Positions 7,801 through 10,800 of a stretch of 64,000 bases of DNA are shown one piece after another. Position numbers and translations under genes: made by a program. The notes beneath the pieces are model-generated. The model had not been told where the DNA came from. It made no database searches and worked only from the letters and a program-made list of their open reading frames with translations. The first letter of the stretch is position 1, and every line of letters begins with the position of its first letter. Origin of the DNA: Dictyostelium discoideum (Eukaryota); assembly GCA_000004695.1 (NCBI GenBank), contig CM000151.3, forward strand, positions 5,824,001 to 5,888,000. The letters are read 5' to 3'.

Positions 7801-10800
7801 ATACAGAGGAAAAAACTCTACAACTTGAAATTAAAAAAATTCAAGAGGAAAAAGTTTCTAAAAAAATGGAAACTATTCAGGAGGAAATGGTTGAAAAAGA
7901 TTTTGAAGATATTATTGAAAAAGAAGAAAAACAAATACTAACAACTCAACAAGTTTCAAAAGAAAATGAAAATGAAAATGAAAATGAAAAAGTTGTTGAA
8001 TCAATAATAATTAAAAAAGAAATTGAAATTGAAAATGAAAATGAAAATGAAAATAAAAATAAAAATGAAAATGAAACAACTTTTGAAAAAGTAGATATAA
8101 ATAAAGAAAATGAAGAAAGTAAAGAAAATAAAGAAATTGTAATTGAAACTGAAAAATCAAAAGAAATTGTAATTGAAAAAGAAGAAACAAAATTAGAGGT
8201 GGATGTAAAGAAAAATGATGTGGAATCAATTGCAAAGGATGATTCCAATAATATCAATTCAACGACAATTCAAGACAATGAAGAATTTGAAATTGTAATT
8301 GCACCACCATCAACAACAACAACTCCACCACAAATTTCACAGCGTCAAGAAGAGCCAATGGTTTTAGAAAATGATAAATCTGAAACTAATGTAGATAATA
8401 ATAATAATAATAATAATAATAATAATAATAATAATAATAATAATAATAATAATAATAATAATAATAATAATAATAATAATAATAATAATAATAATAATAA
8501 TAATAATAATAATAATAATAATAATAATAATAATAATAATAATAATAATAATAATAGTAATAGCAATAGTAATAATAGTAATAATAAAAATCCTATAGCT
8601 TCAGGTGATATGGCAATTGAGGTAATGGGAGAAAAAGAGTCATTATTATCATCATCAAATATCGTTAATACAATTGGAGGTGGTATACCAACACCAATAG
8701 TCGATACAGATATTGTAATGAATGGATGTGATGAGAATGATATCATAGATGTAATATTAACAGAAGACGGTCAACAGCAACAAGAACAATATGATTATCA
8801 AAATTCAACCATTTTAGTACCAGTAGTTGTAAATCAAACTCCAACAATGTCAAATGAAATTTTATATGTAAATAGTGAAGTACTAATTGAAGACCCTCAA
8901 ATAACAGCAACAGCAACAGCAACAACAACAACAACTACAACTACAACAACATCAACACCAAATTTACAATCAAATTTACAATCAAATTTACAATCAAATT
9001 TACAATCAAATTTACAATCAAATTTACAACAAAATTTACAACAAAATTTACAACCAATTTTACAAACACAACCAAATCCACAAACTATACAACAAACTAC
9101 TTTTATATATCAATTTTTAAATAATAACAATGGTGGTAATAATAATAATAATATTAATAATAATAATAATAATAATAATAATAATAATAATAATAATAAT
9201 AATAATAATAATAATAATAATAATAATAATAATGATAATGGAAATGGGTTAAAAAGAAAAGGGTATTTTGAAATGGAAAGTGTTCAATCTCATTTTTCAT
9301 TACCAGAATCAAATATTAATGAACATGGTATTCCAACTAAAGTGATGAGATATTATGAACTACTTGATGTATTTAATGAACTAAGTAATTTAATGGCCTA
9401 CACAATTCAAAATAAAGTTCCCTTAAGAAATTGTATGCAATCATTTTTAACTCACTATTCGAAACCTGAAAATATTCAACAACTACAATCTGGTATTATC
9501 CCTAATAATTTAAATAGTAATAATAATAATATTGATAATAATTTTAATAATAATTTTAATAATATTGGTAATAATATTAATATTAATAATAATAATAATA
9601 ATTTTAATAATATTGGTAATAATATAAATAATAATAATAATAATAATAATAATAATAATAATAATAATAATAATAATAATAATAATAATAATAATAATAA
9701 TAATAATAATAATTATAATAATTATAATAATAATAATAATAATAATAATAATAATAATTATAATAATAATAATAATAATAATAGTAATAATAACATTAAT
9801 AATAATAGTAATACAGCGATACCAACAACAACGACAACACCAGCCCAAACAACTACTACAACTACTACAGCAGCAGCAGCAACACCAAATTCATCTAAAA
9901 TAACTAAACAACCATCATTCCCAGTACCCTCTTCAACAACAACTTCAACTTCAAGTGGTAATAAAAAATCAAGTAAATCTGTACAAAAATCACAAGAAAC
10001 CACCACAACAACAACAACAACAAAAGGAACTAGGGGAAAGAGAAAATCCTCAACTTCTACAACAACAACAACACCAACACAAACACCGACACCGACACCA
10101 ACACCAACACCAACACCAGCACCAACACCAACACCAACACCAACAACCACTACTGATTCTTCTGATACCACTTCAAATACACCAGCAACCACCACAACTT
10201 CATCATCAAAATCAAAATCAAAAATCAAAATCATCATCATCATCATCAACATCAACACAAGAAGAGGTAGAACCTAAGAAATCAAAAGGTAAAAGAAAAA
10301 CCAATTCCTCTTCTTCATCAATTCCAACTACAGCAATAACACCAGCTACAAATACAGTTACACCAACTGCTTCACCATCACCATCACTTTCATTACCTTC
10401 ACCATCTTTAAATACAAGTAATTCATCAATTGTTGACACAAATGTTAATGTTAATGGCACAACTACAGCCATGCCAACAACAACAGCAGCAGCAACAACA
10501 ACTACAACAACAGCGGCAGCAATTACACCATCAAATCCATTAAATTCAAGTGGAGGAAATGTATTTATAAACACAAATGGTTTGACAATGTCGCCAATTG
10601 TAAATGCATTAATTCAACCACCTCAACCGTCTCAATCACCACCATTATCAATACCATCACCAACTCAATCAATGTTGGTACCAACATCATTTTTAACAAA
10701 CCCTCAAACAAATGAACCTTCATCACAATCACAACAGCCACAACAACAGCTACAACAACAACAACAACAACAACAACAACAACAACAACAACAACAACAA

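What the first reader, a model, noticed from the sequence alone, without database searches (positions are those of the whole stretch)
10190..10290. A single extra A in an A5 run splits a coding region of about 2,000 codons
Frame 1 (ORF 5793..10277) and frame 2 (ORF 9955..11178) carry the same Ser/Lys/Thr/Pro-rich composition. Frame 1 reads ...SSSKSKSKIKIIIIININTRRGRT* and frame 2 reads ...KSKSSSSSSTSTQEEVEPKKSKGKRK.... The only event between them is tcaaaa-A-tcaaaa at 10220-10224. This is either a homopolymer sequencing error, a real inactivating mutation, or, least likely, a programmed +1 shift. Whichever it is decides whether the gene ends at 10277 or at 11178.
Basis: seen in the sequence. 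Interest (0 to 1): 0.5.

Follow-up and report, generated by a model that had tools for sequence, protein, structure and literature searches.

The report
Likely one-base reference error splitting gene
One extra A in the Dictyostelium discoideum AX4 reference cuts a 2,012-codon LIM-domain-binding gene in two, and because a nearly identical lab strain and four related genomes lack it, it is most likely a sequencing error in the old reference and not biology.

Summary
The window is D. discoideum AX4 chromosome 2. An A5 run at 10220-10224 lies in a (TCAAAA)4 array. It shifts a long ORF from frame 1 (stop at 10275-10277) to frame 2 (stop at 11176-11178). Removing one A, and adding two upstream exons taken from the orthologous gene models, gives one 2,012-codon gene of the LIM_bind family (Pfam PF01803).

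All five other genomes I could fetch have A4 and a single annotated gene ending at the position equivalent to 11178. They are two D. discoideum assemblies, D. cf. discoideum, D. citrinum and D. firmibasis. One of them (L003, inferred to be AX2-214) matches the window over 17 kb, including every polyN and polyQ tract, except for this one A.

The 317 codons after the shift are under purifying selection (dN/dS 0.17-0.30). No intron or poly(A) signal offers an alternative.

At 7 of 7 nearby substitution differences that could be polarised, the AX4 reference is the odd one out. That density is far above what measured mutation rates allow.

Best reading: a Sanger-era reference error (about 0.85). 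A real mutation in the AX3/AX4 lineage (about 0.12) needs AX4 reads to exclude. Programmed frameshifting is effectively ruled out. The true gene end is 11178. Interest is low.

The parts
10220..10224 (+). A5 run holding the one extra A. All five other genomes have A4 here.
10206..10230 (+). Hexamer array (TCAAAA)x4 encoding SKSKSKSK. It is perfect in the relatives and broken by the extra A in the third unit in the AX4 reference.
4810..5068 (+). Exon 1 of the gene. The ATG at 4810 is the start of the gene model in L003.
   Evidence: Splice sites were mapped from the L003 model. The 173-nt middle exon is the same length in the chosen intron model of four genomes; that model is unique for L001 and L002 and one of several for L003 and L004.
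5271..5443 (+). Exon 2 (173 nt). Intron 1 is 5069..5270 and intron 2 is 5444..5570.
   Evidence: GT/AG boundaries are shown.
5571..11178 (+). Exon 3, which is the whole remaining coding region once the extra A is discounted. The true stop codon is 11176-11178.
4897..5780 (+). N-terminal part of the LIM_bind domain (protein aa 30-214, profile positions 15-175). It spans both introns.
   Evidence: PF01803, E 1.1e-25, 91 bits, cut-off 24.2.
9285..9416 (+). C-terminal part of the LIM_bind domain (profile positions 190-233). About 1,170 low-complexity residues separate it from the first part.
   Evidence: E 3.4e-8, 33.7 bits.
10224..10277 (+). Out-of-frame tail IKIIIIININTRRGRT plus a stop. It exists only if the A5 is read literally.
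10225..11178 (+). Conserved C-terminal 317 codons in frame 2. They include the KKSKGKRK basic motif and a nearly invariant tail, ...LTLGDPNAELDKFLSLDNDHLSLDHF...HHYKKSST.
   Evidence: This stretch is 100% identical to L003. dN/dS is 0.27, 0.17 and 0.30 against L004, L001 and L002.
4880..4880 (+). Second difference private to the AX4 reference in the same gene: T where L003, L004 and L001 have G (Leu24 versus Arg; D. firmibasis has Gln).
11337..11364 (+). First AATAAA motifs after the gene (11337, 11341, 11359). There are none between 9961 and 11336.

Best explanation
The extra A at 10220-10224 is most likely a base-calling or consensus error in the 2002/2005 Sanger shotgun reference of AX4 chromosome 2 (those dates and the method are from my own knowledge). 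The organism probably carries (TCAAAA)x4 with A4. If so, it makes one 2,012-residue LIM-domain-binding-family protein from three exons (4810..5068, 5271..5443, 5571..11178 minus one A). Shown here: the discrepancy is private to the reference, and the corrected frame is the conserved, selected one. Inferred: the discrepancy is an error and not a mutation. That inference rests on base rates and on other reference-private discrepancies nearby.
For: (1) L003 is a D. discoideum assembly, GCA_054883475.1. I infer it to be AX2-214 from Holland et al. 2025 (PMC12745789, Nanopore plus Illumina). It aligns to window 1530..24495 in one block at 99.65% identity. Between 5523 and 22438, which includes every polyN and polyQ tract, the only difference is this A. 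(2) L004 (D. discoideum), L001 (D. cf. discoideum), L005 (D. citrinum) and L002 (D. firmibasis, from an independent lab) all carry (TCAAAA)x4 with A4 in frame. (3) All five assemblies have one called gene here, of 2012, 1992, 1995, 1741 and 1730 aa. Each ends about 290-450 bp before the alanyl-tRNA synthetase gene, as frame 2 does in the window. (4) The corrected AX4 protein equals my reconstruction of the L003 protein except for L24R. (5) The downstream frame has dN/dS 0.17-0.30 and a nearly invariant tail. (6) The other 43 A runs of 5 or more bases in 5793..11178 agree between AX4 and L003. L003 therefore does not systematically shorten such runs. (7) At 7 of 7 polarisable substitution differences in 1530-5800 the AX4 reference is the outlier. 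That is more than 1e-3 per site. The measured rates are 2.47e-11 substitutions and 4.93e-11 indels per site per generation, with deletions 4.5 times more frequent than insertions (PMC7466956). Ax2 and AX4 also share an identical axeB lesion, which implies a recent common axenic ancestor (PMC4374526). Most differences must therefore be assembly errors. (8) Precedents exist. The tirD locus is split into two AX4 genes by a reference stop codon that other genomes lack (PMC13142454). [quoted passage not shown]
Against: No AX4 read, trace, cDNA or peptide could be examined, so a real AX3/AX4-lineage insertion is not excluded. The identification of L003 as AX2-214 is inferred, not read from a record. 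The 17 kb around the site is otherwise clean, so this is not an obviously low-quality patch of the reference. Nanopore-based assemblies tend to shorten homopolymers, and every long-tract difference is 'extra in AX4'. This is countered by point 6 and by the frame conservation.
Confidence: 0.85

Rival explanations
1. The extra A is a real +1 insertion that arose in the AX3/AX4 laboratory lineage after it split from the Ax2 line. AX4 would then make a 1,712-residue protein that lacks the conserved C-terminal 300 residues, which would be a strain-specific hypomorph or null.
For: The A5 is what the reference says. A-runs are indel hotspots in this species (PMC7466956). Axenic lab strains do carry private lesions such as axeB (PMC4374526).
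Against: Roughly 5e-4 insertions are expected in a 6-kb CDS. This uses about 0.9e-11 insertions per site per generation, derived from PMC7466956, and my assumed 1e4 generations. In contrast, there is about one reference discrepancy per 17 kb even in the clean part of the comparison. None of the far more mutable triplet tracts differs between AX4 and L003. The reference shows other private, mutation-implausible differences nearby. The 954 nt downstream show no further lesion, although too little time has passed for that to mean much.
Confidence: 0.12
2. The site is a programmed +1 ribosomal frameshift, or transcriptional slippage, on UCA AAA AUC that fuses the two frames.
For: The A5 run lets a Lys-tRNA re-pair in the +1 frame, so a low background level of slippage is conceivable. 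This is inference only.
Against: The shift is absent from all five other genomes, including a near-isogenic one, and they encode the same protein in a single frame. A frameshift site that is not conserved is not programmed. A run of five A's is, from general knowledge, well below the length associated with transcriptional slippage.
Confidence: 0.01
3. The two ORFs are joined by an unrecognised small intron, or they are two genuine separate genes with a real stop at 10277.
For: There is one GT at 10267, and AG sites lie downstream at 3n+1 distances.
Against: Every such span would remove conserved coding sequence of about 35% G+C and would still keep the out-of-frame IKIIII tail. No assembly annotates an intron or a gene boundary here. 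There is no AATAAA between 9961 and 11336. Frame 2 has no ATG before 10471, and conservation runs straight through the junction.
Confidence: 0.02

Closest known systems
Gene models split by errors in the AX4 reference, such as tirD (DDB_G0287321 plus DDB_G0287437; PMC13142454)
   Same: A single-site lesion in the 2005 reference breaks one gene into two ORFs. Newer D. discoideum genomes lack the lesion and annotate one gene.
   Different: The tirD lesion is a stop codon, and that case was backed by cDNA PCR. Here the lesion is a 1-nt homopolymer insertion and there is no wet-lab check.
Strain-private inactivating lesions of axenic lab strains, such as the axeB/NF1 deletion (PMC4374526)
   Same: This would be the right category if AX4 really carries A5.
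   Different: The axeB lesion is shared by Ax2 and AX4 and was confirmed by resequencing. The lesion here is absent from the near-isogenic assembly and is unconfirmed.
Programmed +1 ribosomal frameshifting (antizyme, Ty1, prfB; from general knowledge)
   Same: Two long overlapping ORFs in the 0 and +1 frames are joined at a short slippery-looking run.
   Different: Programmed sites are conserved across orthologues. Here the orthologues are in a single frame.
LIM-domain-binding family, Pfam PF01803 (Ldb1/Chip, plant SEUSS, fungal Adn1/PtaB; member names from general knowledge)
   Same: The gene product matches the LIM_bind profile above the curated cut-off. Like SEUSS-type members it has long Q-rich flanks.
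   Different: About 1,170 low-complexity residues interrupt the domain match. No LIM-interaction domain was identified in the conserved C-terminal tail. No solved structure matched by sequence.

Membership tests
Reference sequencing/assembly error | The variant is private to the reference assembly. | tested here: met
   The AX4 window has A5. L001-L005 all have A4.
Reference sequencing/assembly error | An independent assembly of a near-isogenic strain lacks the variant while matching everywhere else. | tested here: met
   In L003 it is the only difference across 17 kb. That L003 is AX2-214 is inferred from PMC12745789.
Reference sequencing/assembly error | Correction restores a conserved reading frame that is under selection. 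| tested here: met
   The corrected ORF is 2,012 codons and equals the L003 protein except L24R. dN/dS downstream is 0.17-0.30.
Reference sequencing/assembly error | There are other reference-private discrepancies nearby, at a density mutation cannot explain. | tested here: met
   AX4 is the outlier at 7 of 7 polarisable SNPs. Same-type SNP clusters occur elsewhere in the window. Mutation rates are from PMC7466956.
Reference sequencing/assembly error | Raw reads or traces of the reference strain show the corrected base count. | not testable with these tools
   No AX4 reads could be reached. The exact-protein look-ups all failed.
Real strain-specific frameshift (incipient pseudogene) | The lesion is present in the strain's DNA and transcripts. 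| not testable with these tools
   This needs AX4 reads, PCR or RNA-seq.
Real strain-specific frameshift (incipient pseudogene) | There are further decay signs downstream of the lesion. | tested here: inconclusive
   There are none: the 954 nt are identical to L003. The lab lineage is too young for decay to be expected.
Programmed +1 ribosomal frameshift | The frameshift site and two-frame arrangement are conserved in orthologues. | tested here: not met
   All five relatives encode the protein in one frame.
Programmed +1 ribosomal frameshift | A dedicated slippery or hungry-codon context and a stimulatory element are present. | not tested
   This was made moot by the failed conservation test.
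Spliceosomal intron bridging the frames | A GT..AG span of 3n+1 nt has intron-like (very AT-rich) composition and is not conserved as coding sequence. | tested here: not met
   The only donor is at 10267. All candidate spans lie in conserved coding sequence of about 35% G+C.
LIM_bind (PF01803) protein family | The protein matches the Pfam profile above the gathering score. | tested here: met
   The N-terminal part scores 91 bits and the downstream island 33.7 bits, against a cut-off of 24.2.
LIM_bind (PF01803) protein family | An Ldb1-type C-terminal LIM-interaction domain is present. | tested here: inconclusive
   The C-terminal 107 aa has no Pfam match. A short motif could escape detection.

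The most novel reading that the evidence does not exclude
AX4 and its many derivative mutants really carry the A5 allele. They would then express a LIM-domain-binding transcriptional co-regulator that lacks its conserved C-terminal 300 residues. This would be a hidden background mutation distinguishing AX4 from AX2, and it could contribute to known differences between the two strains in development or gene expression.
Probability: 0.12. Interest if true: 0.35.

Novelty: not a real feature. Interest (0 to 1): 0.1.

Why it matters
The practical value is for annotation. Any AX4 gene model built on the literal reference sequence would be truncated at 10277 or split; I could not retrieve the actual AX4 annotation. 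The true product is a 2,012-residue LIM_bind protein ending at 11178. Knock-out, tagging and proteomics designs that use the AX4 reference would miss the conserved C-terminus. It also adds one more documented case, with an error-density estimate from the AX4-versus-L003 comparison, for re-polishing the AX4 reference. If the lesion turns out to be real, it would be an unrecognised background mutation in the most widely used reference strain.

Tried and rejected
(1) Exact look-ups of the frame-1 ORF, the frame-2 ORF from its first ATG, my three-exon truncated and corrected AX4 models, and my reconstruction of the L003 protein all found nothing.

(2) Homologue searches with the full low-complexity C-terminus were swamped. 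A cleaned chimeric query found nothing. The 317-aa frame-2 product against 1.84 billion representatives also found nothing real. The protein collections evidently lack this family member, so these negatives say nothing about biology.

(3) I could not obtain the AX4 annotation of the locus.

(4) I considered guessing partial products from Logan short-read contigs to reach AX4 reads. I dropped this because contig edges in the polyN tract cannot be predicted.

(5) D. purpureum has no synteny at this locus.

(6) Eichinger et al. 2005 is not held. Holland et al. 2025 has no supplements held as text, so the assembly-to-strain key could not be read.

(7) No solved structure matched the N-terminal domain by sequence.

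(8) A weak TFIIA Pfam hit on the frame-2 product scored 24.8 bits against a cut-off of 36.2. I dismissed it as a low-complexity artefact.

(9) The intron, separate-gene and programmed-frameshift readings were tested and rejected.

Full report
**Observation.** The frame-1 ORF 5793..10277 (1494 aa) ends ...SSSKSKSKIKIIIIININTRRGRT*. The frame-2 ORF 9955..11178 reads ...KSKSSSSSSTSTQEEVEPKKSKGKRK.... The A5 run at 10220-10224 is the third unit of a hexamer array TCAAAA TCAAAA TCAAAAA TCAAAA (10206-10230). Deleting one A yields a single open frame reading ...SSSKSKSKSKSSSSSSTSTQEEVEPKK.... The 317 codons after the shift contain no stop in frame 2 and 18 in each other frame. None of 20,000 shuffles stayed open. 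G+C remains at coding level up to about 11150 and then drops to 0.12.

**Origin of the window.** ORF 57476..58177 (-) is exactly DDB_G0275743 (XP_643544.1) on an 8,484,197-bp contig. The window is therefore D. discoideum AX4 chromosome 2. The gene downstream of the finding is the mitochondrial alanyl-tRNA synthetase (Pfam hit). My splice prediction of 11586..11787 plus 11887..14483 gives 932 aa, the length of XP_643527.1.

**Related loci.** I used the alaRS as an anchor and fetched the syntenic locus from five other genomes.
- L003: D. discoideum, GCA_054883475.1.
- L004: D. discoideum, GCA_054859385.1.
- L001: D. cf. discoideum.
- L005: D. citrinum.
- L002: D. firmibasis.

In each, one gene is called immediately upstream of the alaRS, of 2012, 1992, 1995, 1741 and 1730 aa. 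Each ends about 290-450 bp before the alaRS start. In the window, the frame-2 stop at 11178 lies 408 bp before the alaRS ATG at 11586. D. purpureum is not syntenic here.

**State of the site in the relatives.** All five relatives carry TCAAAATCAAAATCAAAATCAAAATC, that is A4 and a perfect (TCAAAA)x4, in frame with the downstream sequence.

**Comparison with L003.** L003 aligns to window 1530..24495 as one block at 99.65% identity. Between 5523 and 22438 the only difference is the extra A at 10220. That interval is 17 kb and includes all the long polyN and polyQ triplet tracts, which are highly mutable. The other 28 differences are length changes in intergenic A/T tracts or substitutions upstream of 5523.

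The new assemblies match the set described by Holland et al. 2025 (PMC12745789; Nanopore plus Illumina). That set comprises AX2-214, two wild D. discoideum, two cryptic species and three D. citrinum. The paper reports AX2 versus AX4 at 99.5% identity at another locus. L003 is therefore, by inference, AX2-214.

**Gene structure and identity.** Intron enumeration constrained by the annotated product lengths gives the same three-exon plan in four genomes, with a 173-nt middle exon; the solution was unique for L001 and L002 and was chosen by that shared exon length for L003 and L004. Mapped to the window, the exons are 4810..5068, 5271..5443 and 5571..11178. The corrected AX4 product is 2,012 aa. 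It is identical to my reconstruction of the L003 protein except L24R.

The protein belongs to the LIM_bind family (PF01803). Residues 30-214 match profile positions 15-175 (91 bits, cut-off 24.2). An island at window 9285..9416 matches profile positions 190-233 (33.7 bits). About 1,170 residues of low-complexity sequence lie between the two matches.

**Which frame is real downstream.** The 954 nt after the shift are identical in AX4 and L003. Against L004, L001 and L002, dN/dS in frame 2 is 0.27, 0.17 and 0.30. All length differences are multiples of three. The tail ...SSFLNGALFLNSPSSNG.NGSLSSQLTLGDPNAELDKFLSLDNDHLSLDHF.AQLSPTLD.SS.RQHHYKKSST is almost invariant out to D. firmibasis. Frame 2 to 11178 is therefore the functional reading.

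**Alternatives tested.**
- Intron: the only GT between 10100 and 10275 is at 10267. Any 3n+1 GT..AG span from it would delete conserved coding sequence of about 35% G+C and would still keep the out-of-frame tail.
- Genuine transcript end near 10280: there is no AATAAA between 9961 and 11336. The first ones after the frame-2 stop are at 11337, 11341 and 11359.
- Programmed +1 frameshift: the two-frame arrangement is absent from every relative, so the defining conservation criterion fails.

**Error or real mutation.** No AX4 reads could be reached, so this step rests on inference.

*Other A runs.* The other 43 A runs of 5 or more bases in 5793..11178 agree between AX4 and L003. L003 therefore does not generally shorten such runs. 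The one disagreement is exactly where the reference breaks a conserved ORF.

*Nearby substitutions.* At all 7 substitution differences in 1530-5800 that can be polarised with L004 or L001, the AX4 reference is the outlier. This includes the non-synonymous T at 4880 in this same gene. The inferred changes are mostly transversions.

*Rates.* That density exceeds 1e-3 per site and cannot be mutational. The measured rates are 2.47e-11 substitutions and 4.93e-11 indels per site per generation, with deletions 4.5 times more frequent than insertions (PMC7466956). Ax2 and AX4 also share an identical axeB lesion, which implies a recent common axenic ancestor (PMC4374526).

*A second comparison.* Window 43811..64000 against L007 shows 48 differences. 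They include clusters of same-type substitutions, for example 17 A>T within 140 bp. Such clusters look like local sequence-quality problems.

[quoted passage not shown] The tirD locus is split by a reference stop codon that is absent from other genomes (PMC13142454).

*Odds.* Weighing about 0.3 expected reference discrepancies in this CDS against at most about 0.05 real insertions, I put reference error at about 0.85 and a real AX3/AX4 mutation at about 0.12. Everything else together is about 0.03.

**Verdict.** Its most likely cause is an artefact of the reference sequence. The gene ends at 11178. The finding is useful for annotation but is not biologically surprising.

Noticed in passing
window 4897..5780 and 9285..9416: The two stretches matching the LIM_bind (PF01803) profile are separated by about 1,170 residues of polyQ, polyN, E/K-rich and T-rich low-complexity sequence. 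The orthologous products are of similar length (1730-2012 aa), but the position of the insertion in them was not checked. This is a very large insertion inside a dimerisation and co-regulator domain.
   Followed up: partly
window 4880: There is a second AX4-reference-private difference in the same gene: T versus G in L003, L004 and L001 (Leu24 versus Arg; D. firmibasis has Gln). It is probably another reference error.
   Followed up: yes
window 1602-1679, 51275-51328, 52807-52915 and 63029-63166: There are clusters of same-type substitutions between the AX4 reference and the L003/L007 assembly: mostly A>T at 1602-1679, C>A x4, T>G x3 and A>T x17. They look like local sequence-quality patches in one assembly, not mutations. 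Only two sites of the first cluster (1670 and 1679) could be polarised, and there AX4 is the outlier.
   Followed up: partly
window 53842..58177 (-), L007 10001..14191: AX4 annotates two proteins in this neighbourhood, DDB_G0275743 (233 aa) and an Ig E-set protein XP_643543.1 (871 aa). The L007 assembly annotates one 1036-aa gene spanning the same interval, and all fall in one 90% cluster. This may be another split-versus-merged gene model.
   Followed up: no
protein collections: None of the annotated orthologues of this gene (1730-2012 aa) could be found in the searchable protein collections, although their gene positions are indexed. Highly low-complexity proteins appear to be missing, so negative homology searches for such genes are uninformative.
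   Followed up: partly
window 14500..19000 versus L001 and L002 downstream of the alaRS: Gene order downstream of the alaRS differs between genomes. AX4, L003 and L004 have a roughly 1,300-aa FNIP/kinase gene. L001 has a DUF5898 gene. D. firmibasis and D. citrinum have an XRCC1/BRCT gene. This points to local rearrangement among close relatives.
   Followed up: no
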